From Flavobacteriia bacterium (GTDB lineage Bacteria; Bacteroidota; Bacteroidia; Flavobacteriales; Flavobacteriaceae), in assembly GCA_030617765.1 (NCBI GenBank), contig JAUWUU010000001.1:1-46443 (forward strand): a stretch of DNA of 46,443 nucleotides, given 5' to 3'. Positions 33,805 through 44,774 of the stretch are shown here, piece after piece. The notes under the pieces were generated by a model. That model was not told the DNA's origin. It made no database searches and saw only the letters and a program-made list of their open reading frames with translations. The position numbers were made by a program, and so were the translations under genes. How positions within the stretch are numbered: position 1 is the first letter of the stretch; each line of letters starts with the position of its first letter.

Positions 33805-34854
33805 CTATCCTTTATTCAATGCATTCCAACCCTGTGCTGTCAATTCAATTTTTTGATTGGCTCTGGTAATTAAATTTTTACCTTCATTCTCTTCCGTTAT
33901 GTGTCCGATTACAGTAAAATTTGGATTTCCTTTTATTTTTGGATAATCTTCCTGAGCAATGGTAAACAGCAACTCATATTCTTCGCCACCACTTAACGCA
34001 ATTGTTGTACTGTTAAGATTAAATTCTTCGCAAGTTGAAATTACTTGTTGATCAAGTGGAATCTTATCTTCATATAAATTACAACCTGTTTTTGACTGCT
34101 TACAAATATGTAATATTTCAGAAGATAGACCATCCGAAATATCGATCATCGCTGTTGGTTTTACTTCCAGATCTTTAAATAGTTTAATTATATCTTTTCG
34201 AGCTTCGGGTTTTAATTGCCTTTCAACCAAATACGTATAATTTTCCAGATCGGGTTGAGAGTTTGGGTTTACCTGAAAAACCTGCTTTTCACGTTCTAAC
34301 ACTTGCAATCCTAAATAAGCAGCCCCAAGATCTCCCGTAACCACTAAAAGATCATTAGGTTTTGCACCACTTCTATATACAATATCTTCAGCTTTAGCTT
34401 CACCAACAGCAGTAATGCTAATCAACAAACCTTTGGTTGATGAGGTAGTATCTCCACCAATTAGATCAACCTGATAAGTGTCACAGGCCAAATGTATACC
34501 GGCATATAATTCTTCAAGAGCTTCTAATGGAAATCGATTAGAAACCGCAATTGATACAGTAATTTGTTTGGCCATACCATTCATAGCATAAACATCTGAT
34601 AAATTAACCATCACGGCTTTATAACCCAAATGTTTTAAAGGCATATAACTCATGTCAAAATGTACACCTTCAACCAAAAGATCAGTTGTAACCAAAGTTT
34701 GATGATCGCTGTTTTCTAAAACTGCACAATCATCACCCACTCCTTTTACCGTTGATTTGTGGTGAATTTTAATATTTTTTGTTAGGTATTCAATTAATCC
34801 AAATTCTCCCAATTCAGCTATTGAAGTACGCGATTGTTCTTTATTATCAAACAT
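33805..34854 (-). CDS. thiL: Thiamine-monophosphate kinase
   Basis: GEFGLI, GVGDDCA, TTDLLVEGVHF, NLSDVYAM, IGGDT, MIDISDGL, GGEEYEL. Confidence 0.96.
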   Translation of the reverse strand: MFDNKEQSRTSIAELGEFGLIEYLTKNIKIHHKSTVKGVGDDCAVLENSDHQTLVTTDLLVEGVHFDMSYMPLKHLGYKAVMVNLSDVYAMNGMAKQITVSIAVSNRFPLEALEELYAGIHLACDTYQVDLIGGDTTSSTKGLLISITAVGEAKAEDIVYRSGAKPNDLLVVTGDLGAAYLGLQVLEREKQVFQVNPNSQPDLENYTYLVERQLKPEARKDIIKLFKDLEVKPTAMIDISDGLSSEILHICKQSKTGCNLYEDKIPLDQQVISTCEEFNLNSTTIALSGGEEYELLFTIAQEDYPKIKGNPNFTVIGHITEENEGKNLITRANQKIELTAQGWNALNKG

Positions 34855-34891: not shown

Positions 34892-37800
34892 TTAGTTGTT
34901 GCTCTTTTTTGATGTTTTAATATTGTCTAAAATTTCAAGTGCAGCATATTTAGCAGCTGCAATCGTTTCACGATTAACTTTTTCAATAATACTACCACGT
35001 GTGAGATCAATAATTAAAATATAACCATTCATCAATAAAAGTTGAAGGATCATATTGTTAACCACAGTTTCTTCATTATAACCCTCAGCTATGTATAATT
35101 TATCAGCTACTTTATTAAATTCAAGTGCAAACTCAGTTATATCAGGCAAATTCATCAATTGTAAGTAAGTCTCACTAAAACTTGACAATTCGATATTCAT
35201 ATTTGGTGTAAGCAATAAAGGACTGAATGATTGATCTTTATCTTTATAATTATTTAATTTTGAAAGATCAACCTCCTTTTTTGGATTATCAATTCTTACA
35301 AATTTTGCATTTCGCATTTTCTCCATCTGCCATAACCAGAAATTATAACGATATATCTCTGAATTACTCTTATGATCATTAAAAATATATTGATATCTCT
35401 CATGAATCAATTTTTTAACTTTATTCTTGTTTTGATTAATCTCAGGGCGTGAAATTCTTACCTCACGAATTAGTTTGCGCATATCTTCGGCGGCAATCTG
35501 TGGGCCTGTAATTTCTTTACCTTTTCGTCCAATATCAGTACTTAAAATACCCAGTTGAATTTTTTTACCTTCACCCGTTTTAAGCACTTCAATCAAATGT
35601 TTACTCGCATTTAACTCACCATCCTCATTAATAAATGGTTGACCGGCAGGTGTACTCGCTAAAGCATTAAAAATCTGATTGAATAAACCTCGATCAATAA
35701 TAACATTTACATCTTTATTACCTAAAGCAATGAACCTGTTTTTAATAATATCAAAGTTTACTTTTTTAATTAAAACTTCACTATTGTCTTTTACAAATTT
35801 TTTACCTACAAAAATTTTATTGATAATCTCTTCAATATCAATTTTATCAATCATTTTAAAGGAAGAACACAAATAATATTTACCTGTAAATTCTTCTAAC
35901 TCCCAATCAAGTACATCATCTATATAACTACCGTGAACATCTAAAATATCTACAATATGCTTATCACCTGTATACCTCATTAGAGTTCGTTGAAAATGTG
36001 GATTATCGCCACTTGTAGCTTTCTCTTTACGTTCACCATGAGAGTTTCTATACAATATGAAATTCTCAGGATTTTCATAACGTACAATACCAGCTTCTTC
36101 TCTGGAGTAATTACTTGCCGTTAACATAATATCAATTTTATATGGCATACGCACATCACACAAACCACTTATTGTAGAACGAGAGTTTAGATCTTCAACA
36201 TTGCTATCAGCACTACTTTGAAATAATGAATAATAATATTTAATATATTCAGGATCAAAATCGGTTACACGGCTAAAATCACCTACCTCTGTACCAATTC
36301 CGTAAAGGTTACCATTTACATCAGGGAAAATATGGAACATGTCTCCGGCTATCATTTTAAGGGAATGTACGCCGGTTAAGTTTTTCTTCATCCATTTTAA
36401 CATCATAGCTGCCAGCATTTCCGATTTACCAACGCCACTATCACCGGCAATATGGATCACAAAAACAGCGCCATCTTCCTCCTCTACAGCAAACATAGAT
36501 CCGTGAATTGGAATCCCACCCATTTCTTTTACTTTTTCATTTAAAACCGTTAAGCGAGGTTTTTTAATATTACCGTAATAATCTCCTTTTTGATTATGAG
36601 GAATGACAATAGTTTTAATATTACCTCCAGGACCTTTTATATCAAAATAGCCAACACGTGGAAAGGAAATAACTTTTTCAGGTGCACCGTATATACAGAT
36701 CGTATCAGGAACAAAATTTACAACATCATCAATACCAGCATCTTGCAGATCAAGTAATCTGTAATTATCAGCCATATATTTCATAAAACTCTTATGAAAT
36801 ATAAACAGTTCATTTAATAAACCACCGTTAAATATCTTACAACGATAATCTCCCATATCCATATTTGATACAAATTTTCGCAAACGATTTACAAAGAAAT
36901 CACCTAAAGGACGTGTATTTAAAAATTTGATATATTCCTGAGAGTTTTCATCAGAAATAGCCAAAGCTACTTCTTTTAATTTCTTTTTATCAGCATGCTC
37001 TACACGATCGATCTTATGAAAAGCATATTCGCGTTTTTTGGCATCAGTAGCAATACGTGTATGAGTTTGCACATCTTTTTCAGTACCAATTACACCACTT
37101 TCCCACATAAGATCAACTATCCATTTTAAACTACCTTTATCATATTTCTCTAAGGGATGATCTTTTCTTTCAAAATTCTTATGTACAGTAATTCCATGCT
37201 GAACCATTTCATTAATGGAAGAATTTTGTTGTACAAATTCTGCTTCTGTCAAACTTATAACAGAATGTGTATATCTGTCATAATGCTCATTATTCTTAGT
37301 TTGATTCATCAAATTAATGATAAATAGTGTAAACAATCTTATCTCGCTATGCAGCGATTCTTCTTCAATATTTTGTTTTCCTGAATCAATCACCTGATTC
37401 CATATCTCTTCTATTTCAGAAGGTAACACTTTTTGTAAAAATTCTCCAATAATTGATTCAATTTCTAAGTCACCCAAATCTTTCAATTGATGATTAAATC
37501 TTTCGACCAGTGCTTCAATTTTGTTCTTGAAAAAGTTTTTACGATTCAGTAAATACAATCTTGTTATTCTATCATTTGCTTCTATTCTGCTGTCAAGCAC
37601 TTTTTCATTGATCAATTTTTCAATCAATCCAAAAAGTTTTTGTCCAACTTTTATTTCTTTATCCGATAATGAATTATATATACTTTCTGTAATTTGTTTT
37701 AATGAATAGGATAAGTTGATATTCGTAGCTTTGATACCTACTACTTTTTCAAACGTATCCATACTTTTTTCTACCAACTCAACCAATGATGGCTCAACGG

Positions 37801-40800
37801 GATCATTTTCAAATGGAAGATTAAAATGAAGCATTAACTCTTGTATATGCTTGCGTAACAGTATGTTAATACCTTCTAACCTTTCAATATCATCACTGTG
37901 CTTGCCTGTACTGTTGATCGTTAAAATTTTAGTCTTTCTTGGAGAAAATAGAATATTTTCCATTTGAAGTAAAATCTCTGACATAATGATATCATCTTCA
38001 GGAGCATCTAAAACATAATTTGTTGGTTGATATTCTAACTTATTGGTAATATACTTTAAAAGGGTAGATTTACCGTAACGCGCCAGTATTGTTCCAAAAT
38101 CAAGATGCTTGATCATTGGAATATTCTTGTAGATCTGGGGTAATAAATTCTCATAAACTGAAGTAAACGCAATACTGCGAATAAAACTGACAAGGTCATT
38201 ACATTTACCAATATCTTCAGAAAACTCAATCACAGAATTTTTAGAATCACCTATAGAATTAATACTAACACCACTCATACTTGGAGATGCATGATAAAGT
38301 GTCCAAACGTTGTTGATCCTAAGTGAATTGCTCAATGATTTTTTTAACTTTTTAATACTATGAAAATCTTCAAGTACTTTTTTAATGAACTGTCTGTCAG
38401 ATCCTGTTTTAAACAAATCATCTAAAATTTCATCCGAACTTAACTCTTTATTATTTTCTGAATTTTTAGCATTAAAGAATTTAATCCAGTATTTGAGAAC
38501 AATTTCCAAGGCATTTTTAAATTCATTTCGGAATATTTCATATCCTTTGGCTGTTCCGTCTAGATAATCACCCATAGAAAAACGTAAAAATCCGGTTTGA
38601 TAAGGTATTACTGCAATACCTCTTGATTCAGCAAGTTTTTTTGTGAATTTTTCAAGATCCTGGTAAGAAAAGAAATTATTTAACTGGATATTAAATAAAA
38701 ATGATCCGTCGGAAGCAATGATCTTAGCGTGTTCTCCTGCCTCTCCTTCTAATAATTCAGCAGCCGTTTCTTTTGCTATTTTTAACCTTAGTAAAGCTTC
38801 ATTCCTAAAGTTCTTATTTACTCTAAATGTATTGATATCTTTTACCAATTGTTTTTGGTAATAAGTAAAGAATACTTCATCTTTATATTTAAAATCATCC
38901 GGTAATTCTAAAACATCTAACTTATCAAGTGCCACCAACTCATTTAATAAAAATAAGTGTAACGGACTTCCTTCAAAAGGTGAAAATCTCAATAATTCTT
39001 TTGAATTTTTAGTTTTTTGCTTGCGATGATAACTTTCAATTTCTGAAATAATATACTGTTCAATACGCAATTTGATCTTATTTCGAGATGCATTCTTAGG
39101 TAATCTTTCTTCCAGATTATCTTTAATAGATTTTGCCAATTGGGCATTTTCCAAAACATTGACCAACATAAACAATGAATTGGTATTTCCTTTTTCAACA
39201 CTGTTTTGTCTACGGGCAAATTTAATCACATCTCTTTTGGCCGGAGTTGCAATAATTGAACCCAATCTATCTCCGGTAGCACCAAAATTTTTGGTTGTTG
39301 AAATAGAAGAAACCAGATTGATACGCGCATATTGCTGATTGAGATTATTCATAACATACCTTGAAATAGTACGCCATTTTGGTTCATTTTCATCATCGAT
39401 CTTAACGGAATCATTATAAGCCTCATCTAAAAATAAAGTGATCTTACTGGAGCTTATAAACTTTAAAAACCGCAATAACGACTGGTTATTAAAATCCGAA
39501 TAGCCTGATGGGTTTGCAGGATCATTGATTACTATAGTTAGATTTTCACAAAAACTATCCCAAAGATTCCCTGATTCATCAAAAACCTGAAATGTTTTCT
39601 TCATCCGTTCCAGTCGGGTGGTCAATCGGTCATAATCAATTCTACCTTCCTCATTGATTCCTATTTCAAGATCAAAAGGATTGATATCAAAACGATCGGT
39701 TGGAAATAGATCCATATACTCCCATGAGGAGTATTTATTAAATAAAATATAAGGTTTTAATACTTTATCTTCTTTGCCAAAAAGTACATCACGTATGATC
39801 ATCTGAACATCATCAGAAATCGACGTTTTGTTAAGATTTGATAAATTACTGATAAATTCTTTGATGATATCCTGTCCTTTTGTGTTTAAGGAATTGTACT
39901 TTTCATAAACACCAAGATCAATTAAAAAATTATTAAAACGACCCGTATTATCAGCCTCATTTTCCGCTTTGATCAAATATTGTTTGTATTTCTCTAAAAA
40001 CAAATTCAATCCGAAATTTTTATGAAAATGATTTTTAAGCGTTCGCTGATAAGTATCAGGAATAACGTTTAAAATAACACGACATCTATCAATAATTTCC
40101 TGATCAACAGGTTTTAATTTGCGTTGCAACAAATATTCACCGTATGTTTTTATTTGATTTCTACCTCCTCCTTCAACAATTGTTGCTATTTCAACATGAT
40201 CATTTTCAGAATAAAAATATTTTTTTGTGCGTTCCTCAAACTCTTGAATTAATTGTTTATTTTGCTTTTTAATACTATCAATTGAAGTGCAATTTAGGAT
40301 CATGTCCATATAATCACGCAATTTTTCAAGCGTATATTTATCTTTTAAGATCTGACGAGAAAATTCATCAAATTTAAATAATACAATATCTTTTTCAAGA
40401 TTATCAATAAGACCTAATTGTTCTTGTTTAAGCTGATCGATCTCATTACTGTAATCATCGATCTTTGTCTGAATAAGTGATTTAAAATGCTCTAAATTCT
40501 TAGTACTTACCTTTTCAAGGATCAACCTCAAATTTAGTTGACTATTGGCAAGAGCACCTAGCTTTTTTGTATGTACTTTATTTAAAGTTTGAATAATCTT
40601 ATTATGCAAACAAAAAACAAGAGTTGTATTGGTGCTTTTTGAGATGTCAGATGTATCAATAAAGATCATCCGTGTCAACAACGGAAACCACCTGCTATGA
40701 TTGAACAGATTTTTGCGTAAAAAAGGAATACGAATAGCAAAAATTGAAGTTTTGTCTTCATTAATAACTTTAAAAAGACGCTCTTCATCTGTAAAATCAA

Positions 40801-41539
40801 TATCCTTAACAATTACCGGATTAAACAATTCTTCTTTTAAAAGTTTAATGGCTGTATTTGAACTTCCACTAACTACTGTTTTTAGAAATCCATTCAATCC
40901 TTTAAAGTTGATTGTTTGTTCAGAACGGGTAAGAAAATCTTTTTTCTCGGCAGCAGTAGTATAATGTGAACTCTGGATTACCATTTGATCAAAAACATCT
41001 AACAGAAAATTCCATTGCGCTTCTTCAACTTTATCTTTAACACCAATAACTTCGCGAAATTTACGAAGTTCCGAAACCTGATCTCCCAATAAGATCTGAT
41101 ACCTGAAATTTAAATTGGGTTGCGTTACAGGTGGGGTGCCAACAGAATAATCATGACAACTCAAAATATTTCTAGCTTGCTCCTGTTCTTCTTCATTAAT
41201 AGCTTCAGTATCGATCAATGAGATTAACCTTTGATGAAAAAGATTCTTCTTAGTACGGTATTCAAAAGCCTTAGATTCATCATGAGGAAACAACATCAAT
41301 GATACATCAACATAACCCGGAATTGACTCTTTAAGTTCAAGTAATTGTCTGTCAATTTCTTTATGCTGAAGTATAGGATCATCTGGCTCTTCATAACACA
41401 AATGTGTAAACGACTTCAAATTATCTATAATGTGCCTTGGTAAAAAGTTTTCAGCACGTTGCCCCAATGACAGATATAAATCTATAAAATCACGAATATC
41501 TTCTCTTAAACTTAACTTTGGTTTACCTACAATTCTCAT
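34892..41539 (-). CDS. 2215-aa multidomain protein: class I/II PLP aminotransferase-fold domain fused to a C-terminal PEP carboxykinase-like P-loop domain
   Basis: PANPSG (N676), LDEAY (D705), STTKNFGATGDRLG (K750), GFLRFS (R986); YYGNIKK, PIHG (H1679), GDSGVGKS (1699-1706), IAGDM (D1733), TEVG, NSR. Confidence 0.85.
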   Translation of the reverse strand: MRIVGKPKLSLREDIRDFIDLYLSLGQRAENFLPRHIIDNLKSFTHLCYEEPDDPILQHKEIDRQLLELKESIPGYVDVSLMLFPHDESKAFEYRTKKNLFHQRLISLIDTEAINEEEQEQARNILSCHDYSVGTPPVTQPNLNFRYQILLGDQVSELRKFREVIGVKDKVEEAQWNFLLDVFDQMVIQSSHYTTAAEKKDFLTRSEQTINFKGLNGFLKTVVSGSSNTAIKLLKEELFNPVIVKDIDFTDEERLFKVINEDKTSIFAIRIPFLRKNLFNHSRWFPLLTRMIFIDTSDISKSTNTTLVFCLHNKIIQTLNKVHTKKLGALANSQLNLRLILEKVSTKNLEHFKSLIQTKIDDYSNEIDQLKQEQLGLIDNLEKDIVLFKFDEFSRQILKDKYTLEKLRDYMDMILNCTSIDSIKKQNKQLIQEFEERTKKYFYSENDHVEIATIVEGGGRNQIKTYGEYLLQRKLKPVDQEIIDRCRVILNVIPDTYQRTLKNHFHKNFGLNLFLEKYKQYLIKAENEADNTGRFNNFLIDLGVYEKYNSLNTKGQDIIKEFISNLSNLNKTSISDDVQMIIRDVLFGKEDKVLKPYILFNKYSSWEYMDLFPTDRFDINPFDLEIGINEEGRIDYDRLTTRLERMKKTFQVFDESGNLWDSFCENLTIVINDPANPSGYSDFNNQSLLRFLKFISSSKITLFLDEAYNDSVKIDDENEPKWRTISRYVMNNLNQQYARINLVSSISTTKNFGATGDRLGSIIATPAKRDVIKFARRQNSVEKGNTNSLFMLVNVLENAQLAKSIKDNLEERLPKNASRNKIKLRIEQYIISEIESYHRKQKTKNSKELLRFSPFEGSPLHLFLLNELVALDKLDVLELPDDFKYKDEVFFTYYQKQLVKDINTFRVNKNFRNEALLRLKIAKETAAELLEGEAGEHAKIIASDGSFLFNIQLNNFFSYQDLEKFTKKLAESRGIAVIPYQTGFLRFSMGDYLDGTAKGYEIFRNEFKNALEIVLKYWIKFFNAKNSENNKELSSDEILDDLFKTGSDRQFIKKVLEDFHSIKKLKKSLSNSLRINNVWTLYHASPSMSGVSINSIGDSKNSVIEFSEDIGKCNDLVSFIRSIAFTSVYENLLPQIYKNIPMIKHLDFGTILARYGKSTLLKYITNKLEYQPTNYVLDAPEDDIIMSEILLQMENILFSPRKTKILTINSTGKHSDDIERLEGINILLRKHIQELMLHFNLPFENDPVEPSLVELVEKSMDTFEKVVGIKATNINLSYSLKQITESIYNSLSDKEIKVGQKLFGLIEKLINEKVLDSRIEANDRITRLYLLNRKNFFKNKIEALVERFNHQLKDLGDLEIESIIGEFLQKVLPSEIEEIWNQVIDSGKQNIEEESLHSEIRLFTLFIINLMNQTKNNEHYDRYTHSVISLTEAEFVQQNSSINEMVQHGITVHKNFERKDHPLEKYDKGSLKWIVDLMWESGVIGTEKDVQTHTRIATDAKKREYAFHKIDRVEHADKKKLKEVALAISDENSQEYIKFLNTRPLGDFFVNRLRKFVSNMDMGDYRCKIFNGGLLNELFIFHKSFMKYMADNYRLLDLQDAGIDDVVNFVPDTICIYGAPEKVISFPRVGYFDIKGPGGNIKTIVIPHNQKGDYYGNIKKPRLTVLNEKVKEMGGIPIHGSMFAVEEEDGAVFVIHIAGDSGVGKSEMLAAMMLKWMKKNLTGVHSLKMIAGDMFHIFPDVNGNLYGIGTEVGDFSRVTDFDPEYIKYYYSLFQSSADSNVEDLNSRSTISGLCDVRMPYKIDIMLTASNYSREEAGIVRYENPENFILYRNSHGERKEKATSGDNPHFQRTLMRYTGDKHIVDILDVHGSYIDDVLDWELEEFTGKYYLCSSFKMIDKIDIEEIINKIFVGKKFVKDNSEVLIKKVNFDIIKNRFIALGNKDVNVIIDRGLFNQIFNALASTPAGQPFINEDGELNASKHLIEVLKTGEGKKIQLGILSTDIGRKGKEITGPQIAAEDMRKLIREVRISRPEINQNKNKVKKLIHERYQYIFNDHKSNSEIYRYNFWLWQMEKMRNAKFVRIDNPKKEVDLSKLNNYKDKDQSFSPLLLTPNMNIELSSFSETYLQLMNLPDITEFALEFNKVADKLYIAEGYNEETVVNNMILQLLLMNGYILIIDLTRGSIIEKVNRETIAAAKYAALEILDNIKTSKKSNN

Positions 41540-41587: not shown

Positions 41588-41595
41588 CAAAAATA
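41588..41595 (-). promoter_or_regulatory. Sigma-A -7 element for the 2215-aa gene
   Basis: TATTTTTG on the minus strand, about 50 bp upstream of the ATG. Confidence 0.55.
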
Positions 41596-41879: not shown

Positions 41880-43406
41880 ATGAACCTTAACAGACGTAAT
41901 TTTATTAAAACAAGTACAGCTGCTGCTGCCGGCACCATGATATTGCCACCTTTTTTACAATCATACCAAAACATTCAAAATTCTACAGATGTGAATAATT
42001 ATATGGATCATTTTGAGGTAACAACCGAACTAATGCAAAAAGTAATTTCAGAAGCAATGTCAAAGGGTGGTAATTATGCCGATCTTTTCTTTGAACATAA
42101 AATCTCCAATTCCCTTGGGCTTGAAGATGGAAAAGTAAACAAAGCCTATTCTAATGTTGATTATGGTGTTGGTATAAGGGTATTGAAAGGTGACCAGACC
42201 GGTTACGCCTATTCTGAAACTATTGATGCTACATCTATGCTAAATGCGGCTCGCATGGCAGCCAATATAGCAAACAACCCTAAACAATTTAGTTTAAATA
42301 CGGTTAATGTAAAAGCCCCTGCCGATTACTACAAAATCTCACAAAAATGGGAAAATGTATCTGTAAAAGACAAGGTCCCTTTTGTACAAAAAATTAATGA
42401 TAAGGTTTTTGAGCTTGACAAAAAGGTAATCAAAGCCAAAGCTTTTTTATGGGATGAAACAAGCTATGTGCTCTTTTATAATTCTGAAGGTACACTTTCT
42501 TATGATTATCGGCCACTTGTGAGTTTTGGGGCTGTATGCACCATGCAACGCGGTGATCAAATTGAAAACACTTTTAGTGGCCGTTCTTACAGAAAAGGCT
42601 TTGAATGGCTTTCAAATGATCTTGTTAATACTCTGGCAAAAGACGTTGTGGATAAAACTAATATTCTTTTTGATGCCACCAAACCAAAAGCAGGTGAAAT
42701 GCCTGTAGTACTCGGTGCTGGTAGCTCAGGAATTTTACTGCACGAAGCTATCGGCCATACTTTTGAAGCTGATTTTAACCGAAAAAAAACTTCCATTTTT
42801 AGTGATAAGATGGGTAAAAAAGTTGCTGAGAACTTTATTAATATTATAGATGATGGTACCCTTGAAAACAATCGCGGTGCAATCAATATTGACGATGAAG
42901 GAAATGAAGTTAAAAAAACCTATCTAGTAAAAGATGGCGTACTGAATAGTTATATACACGACCGTATCAGTGCGCAACACTATAATGTTGAACCAACAGG
43001 CAGTGGAAGAAGGGAATCTTTCAGGTATATACCACTTCCAAGAATGCGATCAACTTATATGGAAGCTGGACCACATACCCGTGAAGAAATTTTTGAAAAT
43101 GTAGATTACGGTATATATGTAGATAATTTTACAAATGGACAGGTGAAAATTGGTGCAGGAGATTTTACTTTTTTTGTAAAATCAGGTTATCTAATAGAAA
43201 AAGGGAAACTTACACAACCGATAAAAGACATAAATATTATTGGAAACGGCCCACGGGCACTTGCCGATATTTCAATGGCTGCCGATGATTATCTCGCCGA
43301 TAATGGATTGTGGACATGTGGTAAAGACGGACAGTCGATTCCTGTAACAATGGGATTACCTACAGTGCTTATTAAAAAATTAACCGTTGGCGGAACCAAT
43401 GTTTAA
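41880..43406 (+). CDS. tldD: TldD metalloprotease with twin-arginine signal peptide
   Basis: LLHEAIGHTFEAD (HExxxH), IDDEG, PRMRSTY, CGKDGQ metal cysteine; N-terminal NRRNFIK plus hydrophobic stretch. Confidence 0.92.
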   Translation: MNLNRRNFIKTSTAAAAGTMILPPFLQSYQNIQNSTDVNNYMDHFEVTTELMQKVISEAMSKGGNYADLFFEHKISNSLGLEDGKVNKAYSNVDYGVGIRVLKGDQTGYAYSETIDATSMLNAARMAANIANNPKQFSLNTVNVKAPADYYKISQKWENVSVKDKVPFVQKINDKVFELDKKVIKAKAFLWDETSYVLFYNSEGTLSYDYRPLVSFGAVCTMQRGDQIENTFSGRSYRKGFEWLSNDLVNTLAKDVVDKTNILFDATKPKAGEMPVVLGAGSSGILLHEAIGHTFEADFNRKKTSIFSDKMGKKVAENFINIIDDGTLENNRGAINIDDEGNEVKKTYLVKDGVLNSYIHDRISAQHYNVEPTGSGRRESFRYIPLPRMRSTYMEAGPHTREEIFENVDYGIYVDNFTNGQVKIGAGDFTFFVKSGYLIEKGKLTQPIKDINIIGNGPRALADISMAADDYLADNGLWTCGKDGQSIPVTMGLPTVLIKKLTVGGTNV

Positions 43407-43454
43407 TTTTTATACAAACTAATTATTGATAATAACATTTGAAAAATAATTATA

Positions 43455-44774
43455 ATGACCAAAGAGGAGAAGTATTCACTAGCTAAATGGGCTGTAAACC
43501 ATGCTCTCAAAAATGGTGCACAAAACGCAAAAGTAAATATTTACGATAGCCAGAACAGCAGCGTTAAAGTAAGAGCTGAAAAAATTGATAAGCTTGAACA
43601 ATCAACACAAAGCGGTTTAAGTATTTCATTGTATGTTGACAAGAAATATTCAGCTCACTCAACCAATAGACTGAACAACAAAAATGAGTTAAAAAGATTT
43701 ATTGAAAATGCAATTGAAGGCACAAAATTTCTTGCAGAAGATGAGTTTCGCACATTACCAGAACCCCATCTGTATTTCAAAGGAAATGAAAAGGATCTCA
43801 GCACCTTTGACAATGGATTTTTATCGCTTAACCCCCAGGAAAAGGTAAATGCAGTATTCAATATTGAAAAAGAAGTGTTAGGGAAAGATGATCGGATAAT
43901 CTCTGTAACGGCAAGTTACTACGATGGAATGAGCAGTAGTGTTATGGTTACAAGCAATGGTTTTGAAGGTGATAGAGCAAACACTTATTACAGTCTGAAT
44001 GCTTCTGTATCAGTAAAAGGTGATGATGCACGTCCGGAATCTTATTGGACTGAAAGTGCCATTTTTAATGATCAATTAAAAAAAGAAGGCATTGGAGAAA
44101 TCGCCCTTAAAAGAGCTTTGAAAAAAATCGGACAAACTAAGATCGAATCCGATAAAATGACCATGATCGTTGAAAATAGATTGGCCAGCAGAAGTCTTAG
44201 TCCATTAATTTCTGCTTTAAATGGTTCGGCAATACAACAAAAAAATTCATTCCTTGTCGATGAACTTGGAAACAAAATTGGATCAGATAAATTAACCCTT
44301 ATTGATGATCCTTTTATAATCTCAGGCAGGGGTTCAAGGTTATTTGATGGCGAAGGTCTTGCATTAAAAAAACGAACCATCTTTGAAAAAGGGGTTTTAA
44401 AAAGCTATTATATCGATACCTATTATGGTAAAAAACTTAAGATGGATCCAACTTCCGGTAGTACAACAAATCTTGTAATGACCCCCGGAAAAAGAACTAT
44501 GGAAGAAATGATCGCTACTCTAGACAGAGGAATTCTTATTACCGGTTTCAATGGAGGTAATACGAACGGCACAACAGGTGATTATTCTTATGGTATTGAC
44601 GGTTTTCTTATTGAAAAAGGAAAGATCGTAAAACCTGTTTCGGAAATGAATATTACAGGCAATATGAAGCAACTTTGGATGAACTTAACTGAAGTTGGAA
44701 ATGATGTTTATAAGAATTCTTCCTGGAGAATGCCATCACTAATGTTTAAGGATATTGATTTTAGTGGAATTTAA
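43455..44774 (+). CDS. pmbA: PmbA/TldE non-catalytic partner subunit
   Basis: SFL..LG.KI.S, FDGEG, NGTTGDYS, PVSEMNITGN; no HExxxH and no signal peptide. Confidence 0.9.
   Translation: MTKEEKYSLAKWAVNHALKNGAQNAKVNIYDSQNSSVKVRAEKIDKLEQSTQSGLSISLYVDKKYSAHSTNRLNNKNELKRFIENAIEGTKFLAEDEFRTLPEPHLYFKGNEKDLSTFDNGFLSLNPQEKVNAVFNIEKEVLGKDDRIISVTASYYDGMSSSVMVTSNGFEGDRANTYYSLNASVSVKGDDARPESYWTESAIFNDQLKKEGIGEIALKRALKKIGQTKIESDKMTMIVENRLASRSLSPLISALNGSAIQQKNSFLVDELGNKIGSDKLTLIDDPFIISGRGSRLFDGEGLALKKRTIFEKGVLKSYYIDTYYGKKLKMDPTSGSTTNLVMTPGKRTMEEMIATLDRGILITGFNGGNTNGTTGDYSYGIDGFLIEKGKIVKPVSEMNITGNMKQLWMNLTEVGNDVYKNSSWRMPSLMFKDIDFSGI

What the first reader, a model, noticed from the sequence alone, without database searches (positions are those of the whole stretch)
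34892..41539. Giant aminotransferase-PEP carboxykinase-like fusion: candidate Asp-oxaloacetate-PEP channelling enzyme
Seen: one uninterrupted 2215-codon ORF with its own promoter element. Residues about 660-1000 hold the fold-type I PLP set (N676-P, D705-x-x-Y, Schiff-base K750 with downstream R, carboxylate-binding R986). Residues about 1650-1800 follow the order of ATP-PEPCK motifs: YYGNIKK, then H1679 19 residues after the second Lys (as K213 to H232 in E. coli PckA), P-loop GDSGVGKS, acidic D1733 and NSR. Known: aspartate aminotransferase makes oxaloacetate, the labile substrate of PEPCK. Inference: one polypeptide couples the reactions for gluconeogenesis from amino acids or for anaplerotic carboxylation into aspartate. 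I know of no characterised enzyme with this architecture.
Basis: partly seen in the sequence, partly recalled or inferred. Interest (0 to 1): 0.9.

Follow-up and report, generated by a model that had tools for sequence, protein, structure and literature searches.

The report
Giant aminotransferase–PEPCK-like fusion enzyme
This is a real, strongly conserved 2,215-residue protein that joins a vitamin-B6 aminotransferase fold to a divergent PEP-carboxykinase fold; it likely converts PEP and CO2 into aspartate (or the reverse) in one polypeptide, but neither activity has been tested.

Summary
The ORF (34892-41539, minus strand, 2215 aa) and all cited residues are real. It belongs to a rare, patchy, almost always fused family in Bacteroidota, Ignavibacteria, Calditrichota and others, with a distant clade at 20-27% identity. 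PLP-site and PEPCK-site residues are invariant in 22 of 22 deep members. Predicted structures show a complete class I aminotransferase fold spread over residues ~75-1025 and a two-lobed PEPCK fold, not only the HPr-kinase lobe. Residues 1100-2020 match a whole stand-alone family that databases label PEPCK. That stand-alone gene has an aminotransferase gene directly beside it in 10 of 80 loci, of three different kinds. Best reading: a PEP-oxaloacetate-aspartate coupling enzyme. Against: 42 of 50 carriers also have canonical pckA, D268 and the ATP-base motif are not kept, the amino-acid substrate is not resolved, and channelling is untested. The scan met this family four times before on other DNA; my paper searches found no description of it.

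The parts
34892..41539 (-). 2215-aa fusion ORF
   Evidence: full-length homologs
38465..41317 (-). Class I (fold-type I) PLP aminotransferase fold, residues ~75-1025, about 315-385 core residues interrupted by helical insertions; G457-R460, W606, N676-P677, D705, Y708, K750, R758, R986
   Evidence: model pLDDT 82.5, pTM 0.82; VIA Z 15-17, rmsd 3.2-4.3; Pfam; invariance
40505..40903 (-). Inserted alpha/beta subdomain, residues ~213-345, conserved in the deep clade, function unknown
   Evidence: secondary structure; alignment; no informative Atlas match for residues 1-445
35465..38242 (-). PEPCK-like module, residues ~1100-2025, equal to a whole stand-alone 500-635-aa family; R1503 (inferred R-loop Arg), Y1654, K1659, K1660, H1679, P-loop 1699-1707, D1733, E1751, R1757, R1787, lid motif 1837-1845
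   Evidence: hhalign P 100, E 5e-55; fold searches; residue mapping
37229..37789 (-). Poorly conserved insertion, residues 1251-1437, present in the Bacteroidota/Ignavibacteria clade, absent from the 16 distant fusions and the stand-alone family
35675..35992 (-). Insertion of about 105 residues (1850-1955) just after the lid motif of the PEPCK-like module
34895..35464 (-). Helical C-terminal extension, residues 2026-2215, function unknown
41588..41595 (-). Candidate Bacteroidota -7 promoter element TATTTTTG, 49 bp upstream of the ATG; weak alone

Best explanation
The protein holds a complete aminotransferase fold and a divergent PEP-carboxykinase fold, and it likely works as a two-step enzyme that carboxylates PEP to oxaloacetate and then transaminates oxaloacetate to aspartate. 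Shown: one chain, both folds predicted, both active-site residue sets invariant. Inferred: the C-terminal module binds Mn/Mg and a phosphate carrier (ADP/ATP, GDP/GTP or Pi/PPi, not resolved) and interconverts PEP + CO2 and oxaloacetate. Inferred: the N-terminal module, with PLP on K750, moves an amino group to oxaloacetate, R986 holding the alpha-carboxylate and R460 the distal one. Tethering would remove the unstable oxaloacetate quickly and pull the near-equilibrium carboxylation forward. Both steps are reversible; I put the aspartate-making direction at about 55:45 over amino-acid gluconeogenesis.
For: Both folds recovered from predicted models (89, 96, 117). PEPCK-equivalent residues Y207, K212, K213, H232, K254, D269, E282, R333 and the lid motif map in order and are invariant in 22 of 22 deep fusions. 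The fusion core forms one branch (SH-aLRT 100, quick tree) against stand-alone relatives. The stand-alone family is labelled PEPCK by databases. It has a same-strand aminotransferase directly adjacent in 10 of 80 metagenome loci (7 of 42 clusters at 90% identity, 6 of 19 at 70%): an AspC/TyrB-like class Ia enzyme upstream (5 loci), a class Ib aspartate-transaminase-like enzyme downstream (1), a class V enzyme with best hit aspartate-glyoxylate aminotransferase upstream (4). All 10 class I/V aminotransferases found among 554 neighbour ORFs sit in the 136 adjacent slots. Other neighbours point to the same node: ppc directly downstream in G176, argG-argH in 2 loci, AsnC in 11 loci of one lineage, asnB directly upstream of the fusion in 15 of 80 loci of one clade. 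The deep profile's best PDB hit is T. maritima aspartate aminotransferase, E 9e-11.
Against: 42 of 50 carriers also encode canonical PckA, 26 of 46 PEP carboxylase, 8 of 46 a pyruvate-carboxylase/OAD subunit, and the own genome has a pckA fragment and six other full class I/II aminotransferases; the function would be redundant in most hosts. E. coli D268 is Gly (G1732) and the R449/T455 base motif is absent. The R65 equivalent rests on alignment to the stand-alone family, and that loop has pLDDT under 50. PEPCK fold scores are modest (Z 13.7, rmsd 4.9; TM 0.2-0.35). All class I subfamilies tie in the fold search, including decarboxylases and lyases. The class Ia R292 position is not invariant in deep members. 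70 of 80 stand-alone loci show no adjacent aminotransferase (some are cut short). In the asnB clade a terminator-like run and a separate promoter motif lie between asnB and the fusion. About 1,100 inserted residues are unexplained.
Confidence: 0.55

Rival explanations
1. Both modules are active and coupled, but on other substrates: for example the PEPCK-like module decarboxylates oxaloacetate to pyruvate or phosphorylates another enolate, and the PLP module acts on alanine, an aromatic amino acid, or as a decarboxylase or lyase.
For: Fold matches do not single out a subfamily; best NCBIfam hits of the PLP part are non-transaminases, all far below cut-off; D268 and the base motif are changed; canonical PckA co-occurs in 42 of 50 carriers.
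Against: Substrate-side PEPCK residues are kept; neighbours of the stand-alone family are aspartate- and PEP-related; the aspartate 4-decarboxylase model TIGR03801 did not match the gene.
Confidence: 0.25
2. Only one module turns over; the other senses a ligand (amino acid or PEP/nucleotide) and controls it, as the PTA-like domain does in hybrid malic enzymes.
For: Precedent in the PEP-pyruvate-oxaloacetate node (PMC8100219, passage on malic enzyme-PTA); large conserved insertions could relay allosteric signals.
Against: The full catalytic sets of both modules are invariant to 21% identity, which a binding-only domain would usually relax.
Confidence: 0.12
3. The C-terminal module is an HPr-kinase-like protein kinase or a generic P-loop ATPase.
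For: HPr kinases score Z 9.3-9.8; G-x-S-G-x-G-K-S-E resembles their P-loop (recalled).
Against: HPr kinases align over 135-152 residues of the P-loop lobe only, PEPCKs over 342-379 residues of both lobes; all listed Foldseek rows are PEPCKs; the Y-x5-KK metal motif of the N-lobe is kept; no PTS neighbour recurs.
Confidence: 0.05
4. The long ORF is an assembly chimera or a decaying accidental fusion.
For: 4 of 80 loci carry frameshifts or stops.
Against: 65 of 80 loci are intact and collinear; 118 of 120 listed proteins carry both motif sets; a second clade at 20-27% identity keeps the order; four DNA runs hold most of the stretch.
Confidence: 0.01

Closest known systems
ATP-dependent PEP carboxykinase (PckA, PF01293; E. 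coli Pck, T. thermophilus 1j3b)
   Same: Two-lobed fold, order and spacing of Y207, K212-K213, H232, P-loop Lys, D269, E282, R333 and lid motif.
   Different: No Pfam match; GKSE instead of GKTT; D268 is Gly; R449/T455 base motif absent; extra N-terminal helices, two insertions, C-terminal tail; fused.
GTP-dependent PEP carboxykinase (PF00821; 9e32, rat cytosolic)
   Same: Best structural match (Z 13.7, 379 aligned).
   Different: 13% identity; no family match by sequence; guanine pocket not tested residue by residue.
PPi-dependent PEPCK (8e1u)
   Same: Same core fold (Z 6.0, 369 aligned); large size with appendages; a GKSE P-loop (recalled).
   Different: Weak structural score; no sequence match; no aminotransferase.
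Stand-alone ~575-aa proteins labelled 'phosphoenolpyruvate carboxykinase' in Fusobacterium, Turicibacter, Clostridium
   Same: Full-length homology to residues 1100-2020 (E 5e-55); the same GDSGxGKSE, DY(F/Y)GxxKK, GTExG, NxR and KxTT/S motifs.
   Different: Single-domain; keeps the DD pair; the label is a database name and I found no biochemical study.
Class I aminotransferases (PF00155), subgroup Ib aspartate aminotransferases (T. maritima 1o4s)
   Same: Whole fold and PLP residue set; a basic residue (R460) at the place of the Ib lysine after the GG motif.
   Different: Core stretched over 950 residues by insertions; 10-17% structural identity; no subfamily cut-off reached.

Membership tests
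Class I/II aminotransferase (PF00155) | Profile match above the gathering score | tested here: met
   43.5 bits against 19.7
Class I/II aminotransferase (PF00155) | Complete fold-type I large and small domains | tested here: met
   315-384 residues aligned, Z 15-17, model range ~75-1025
Class I/II aminotransferase (PF00155) | Schiff-base Lys, pyridine-N Asp, NP motif, phosphate Arg, carboxylate Arg | tested here: met
   K750, D705, N676-P677, R758, R986 in 65 of 65 and 22 of 22
Aspartate aminotransferase | Basic residue for the distal carboxylate (Ia R292 or Ib K109; roles recalled) | tested here: inconclusive
   R460 invariant at the Ib position by motif comparison with L166; R292 position variable; passages of PMC4927141 did not confirm the K109 role
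Aspartate aminotransferase | Measured Asp/2-oxoglutarate transamination | not testable with these tools
   needs an assay
Aspartate 4-decarboxylase (TIGR03801) | Family profile match | tested here: not met
   no match at this gene
PEPCK superfamily | Two-lobed PEPCK fold | tested here: met
   Z 13.7 rmsd 4.9 379 aligned; Z 9.9 rmsd 5.1 342 aligned; Foldseek E 5e-7
PEPCK superfamily | Mn ligands Lys-His-Asp and P-loop Lys | tested here: met
   K1660, H1679, D1733, K1705 invariant
PEPCK superfamily | Substrate residues R65, Y207, K212, R333 (roles recalled) | tested here: inconclusive
   Y1654, K1659, R1787 map clearly; R1503 for R65 only through the stand-alone family
ATP-PEPCK (PF01293) | Profile match above cut-off; DD pair; R449/T455 base motif | tested here: not met
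   no Pfam hit, NCBIfam 12 bits against 806, G1732 for D268, base motif absent
GTP-PEPCK (PF00821) | Profile match | tested here: not met
   no hit at E up to 1
PPi-PEPCK | Sequence and fold relationship; blocked nucleoside pocket | tested here: inconclusive
   Z 6.0 rmsd 6.2; no family model found in the library
HPr kinase/phosphorylase | P-loop lobe without the PEPCK N-lobe | tested here: not met
   model carries the N-lobe; HPrK aligns to model 244-623 only
Channelling bifunctional enzyme | Intermediate passes between sites without release | not testable with these tools
   the two halves were folded separately; needs trapping or isotope-dilution assays

The most novel reading that the evidence does not exclude
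The fusion and its stand-alone relatives are a fourth class of PEP carboxykinase with their own phosphate-donor pocket, and the fused form is a single-chain, CO2-fixing 'PEP-to-aspartate synthase' that channels oxaloacetate through a scaffold built from its 1,100 inserted residues.
Probability: 0.25. Interest if true: 0.85.

Novelty: new variant of a known kind. Interest (0 to 1): 0.62.

Why it matters
The PEP-pyruvate-oxaloacetate node is among the best-studied parts of metabolism, with three PEPCK types described (PMC8100219, passages). An unassigned PEPCK-like clade, widespread as a stand-alone gene in gut anaerobes and fused to an aminotransferase in sediment bacteria, would add an enzyme class to that node. 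If it couples carboxylation to transamination it is a one-gene route from PEP and CO2 to aspartate, useful for aspartate-family production strains, and a direct test case for oxaloacetate channelling.

Tried and rejected
Single-sequence PDB search found nothing. Aspartate 4-decarboxylase, suggested by recalled motifs, was not matched. A link to PPi-PEPCK could not be tested by profile: one recalled Pfam accession was another family, the other is not in the library. DUF4914, an Atlas neighbour, was absent from 5 carrier genomes and has no paper in the library. Replacement of pckA, ppc or pyruvate carboxylase is not general. Within the genus a second PEP carboxylase type occurs in 4 of 9 non-carriers and 0 of 6 carriers, but two of the carriers without ppc have pyruvate carboxylase, so I give this little weight. 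No universal neighbour gene for the fusion. The 116 shorter hits were not examined one by one for real splits. Residues 1-445 gave no informative Atlas match; Foldseek on the N-half did not run. No RNA holder listed. No complex prediction was sent. The careful tree did not finish; the quick tree is quoted. Paper searches that found no description of the fusion or the stand-alone clade: (listings only; subscription journals are not covered). The JBC PEPCK-comparison paper was not held.
Full report
Observation. The window holds one open frame from 41539 to 34892 on the minus strand, 2215 residues. Pfam finds Aminotran_1_2 at 631-809 (E 3e-11). The PEPCK signal is faint by sequence: NCBIfam E 0.044, hhalign to E. 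coli Pck E 7.7e-5 over its residues 156-259. A TAnnTTTG site lies 49 bp upstream, but the pattern is at chance level in the window; it is enriched upstream of homologs, 32 of 63 against 6.6 expected. DNA runs that hold the stretch are listed mostly as cold-seep metagenomes.

Family. A protein search gave 351 relatives of 1218-3877 residues; 120 were listed, at 57-91% identity, and 118 of these carry both motif sets. In species-representative genomes 271 stretches encode a relative; of the best 80, 65 are intact full-length genes, 11 are cut by contig ends and 4 have breaks. Titles name Bacteroidales, Flavobacteriia, Ignavibacteria, Calditrichaceae and one Acidobacteriota genome. The gene is rare and patchy: 3 of 300 sampled phylum genomes, 0 of 22 in the own family sample, 6 of 15 in the own genus. 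An exhaustive profile search added a distant clade of 2000-2200-residue fusions at 20-27% identity and a stand-alone family of 500-635 residues.

Aminotransferase module. The model of residues 1-1070 is confident (pLDDT 82.5, pTM 0.82). It aligns to class I aminotransferases over 315-384 residues spread from about 75 to 1025, Z 15-17. So the N-terminal 'unknown' part is the start of the aminotransferase fold with helical and alpha/beta insertions. G457-R460, W606, N676, P677, D705, Y708, K750, R758 and R986 are invariant in 22 of 22 deep members. The fold search does not pick a subfamily. The deep profile ranks T. maritima aspartate aminotransferase first (E 9e-11). R460 sits where subgroup Ib enzymes carry a lysine that, from recall, binds the distal carboxylate; the passages I read in PMC4927141 did not confirm that role. 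Aspartate specificity is therefore inferred.

PEPCK-like module. The model of residues 1430-2200 is moderate (pLDDT 70.9, pTM 0.66). Its best matches are GTP-PEPCK (Z 13.7, rmsd 4.9, 379 aligned) and ATP-PEPCK (Z 9.9, 342 aligned); HPr kinases match only the P-loop lobe (135-152 aligned) and PPi-PEPCK scores Z 6.0. All rows listed by Foldseek are PEPCKs, with low TM-scores. E. coli Y207, K212, K213, H232, K254, D269, E282, K288 and R333 map to Y1654, K1659, K1660, H1679, K1705, D1733, E1751, R1757 and R1787 (roles recalled). D268 is replaced by glycine, the P-loop ends GKSE, and the R449/T455 base motif is missing, so the phosphate donor is open. PEPCK uses an R-loop, P-loop and lid (PMC12529880, passages); the lid motif is kept at 1837-1845 and followed by a 105-residue insertion, and R1503 is the likely R-loop arginine. 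The stand-alone family aligns over its whole length to residues 1100-2020 (E 5e-55), and databases name its members phosphoenolpyruvate carboxykinase. In a quick tree of 50 rows (21 fusions, 28 stand-alone, E. coli Pck) the fusions form one branch.

Context. The fusion has no universal neighbour. asnB is directly upstream in 15 of 80 loci of one clade, though with a terminator-like run between them; RidA is convergent downstream in 15. The stand-alone gene is more telling. In 10 of 80 metagenome loci an aminotransferase gene is directly adjacent on the same strand: class Ia-like in 5, class Ib aspartate-transaminase-like in 1, class V in 4. After dereplication this is 7 of 42 clusters at 90% identity and 6 of 19 at 70%. 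No class I or V aminotransferase was found elsewhere among the 554 neighbour ORFs; classes III and IV were not searched. ppc, argG-argH and AsnC also occur beside it. Repeated pairing with unrelated aminotransferases is independent support for functional coupling.

Results against. 42 of 50 carriers (50 of 79 genomes tried) keep canonical pckA, 26 of 46 keep PEP carboxylase, 8 of 46 a pyruvate-carboxylase/OAD subunit. The own genome has a pckA fragment and six other full aminotransferases, and no ppc or pyruvate carboxylase match at 90% completeness. So the fusion is not a simple substitute. Most stand-alone loci have no adjacent aminotransferase. Nothing here tests activity, direction or channelling.

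Mechanism. Most likely (0.55): PEP + CO2 to oxaloacetate in the C-terminal module, oxaloacetate to aspartate in the N-terminal module, reversible, with a slight lean to aspartate synthesis because pckA is usually present for gluconeogenesis and the neighbours consume aspartate. Rivals: coupled but other substrates (0.25), one module regulatory (0.12), HPr-kinase-like (0.05), artefact (0.01).

Novelty. Both folds are known; the architecture and the PEPCK-like clade are not described in the searches I ran (listings only), and the passages I read of the node review PMC8100219 name only ATP, GTP and PPi types and no such fusion. Four earlier scan notes report the same family on other genomes with the same reading; they are not independent evidence. 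Verdict: new variant of a known kind, interest 0.62.

Noticed in passing
L086:7493-11887 and L087:5665-9283 (G176): A Bacteroidota genome holds two stand-alone PEPCK-like paralogs, one 25 bp upstream of PEP carboxylase, one divergent from class I fructose-bisphosphate aldolase.
   Followed up: partly
L088-L167: The stand-alone ~575-aa family is abundant (about 2,600 stored metagenome stretches estimated) yet no member reaches a Pfam PEPCK cut-off; it deserves its own family model.
   Followed up: partly
L017-L037, L047, L055, L057, L067, L081: A RidA-family gene lies convergent downstream of the fusion in 15 of 80 loci from two clades; RidA removes enamine by-products of PLP enzymes (recalled).
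   Followed up: no
G015, G017, G019: Three asnB-clade carriers show no ATP-PEPCK, GTP-PEPCK, PEP carboxylase or pyruvate-carboxylase/OAD match; completeness is not given.
   Followed up: partly
L074:16879 onward, L078: An ArgR-headed gene run follows the fusion in two loci; only ArgR was annotated.
   Followed up: no
window 33805-34854 and 41880-44774: thiL follows 37 bp downstream on the same strand (kept only in 3 close loci); a tldD-pmbA pair is divergent upstream and is missing at this place in L002 and L004.
   Followed up: partly
P0377: A 646-aa protein joins a piece of the stand-alone PEPCK-like domain to a SAICAR synthetase domain (an aspartate-using enzyme); single record, not checked.
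   Followed up: no
L035, L045, L064, L072: Four homologs are broken by one or two frameshifts or stops, possibly assembly errors.
   Followed up: partly
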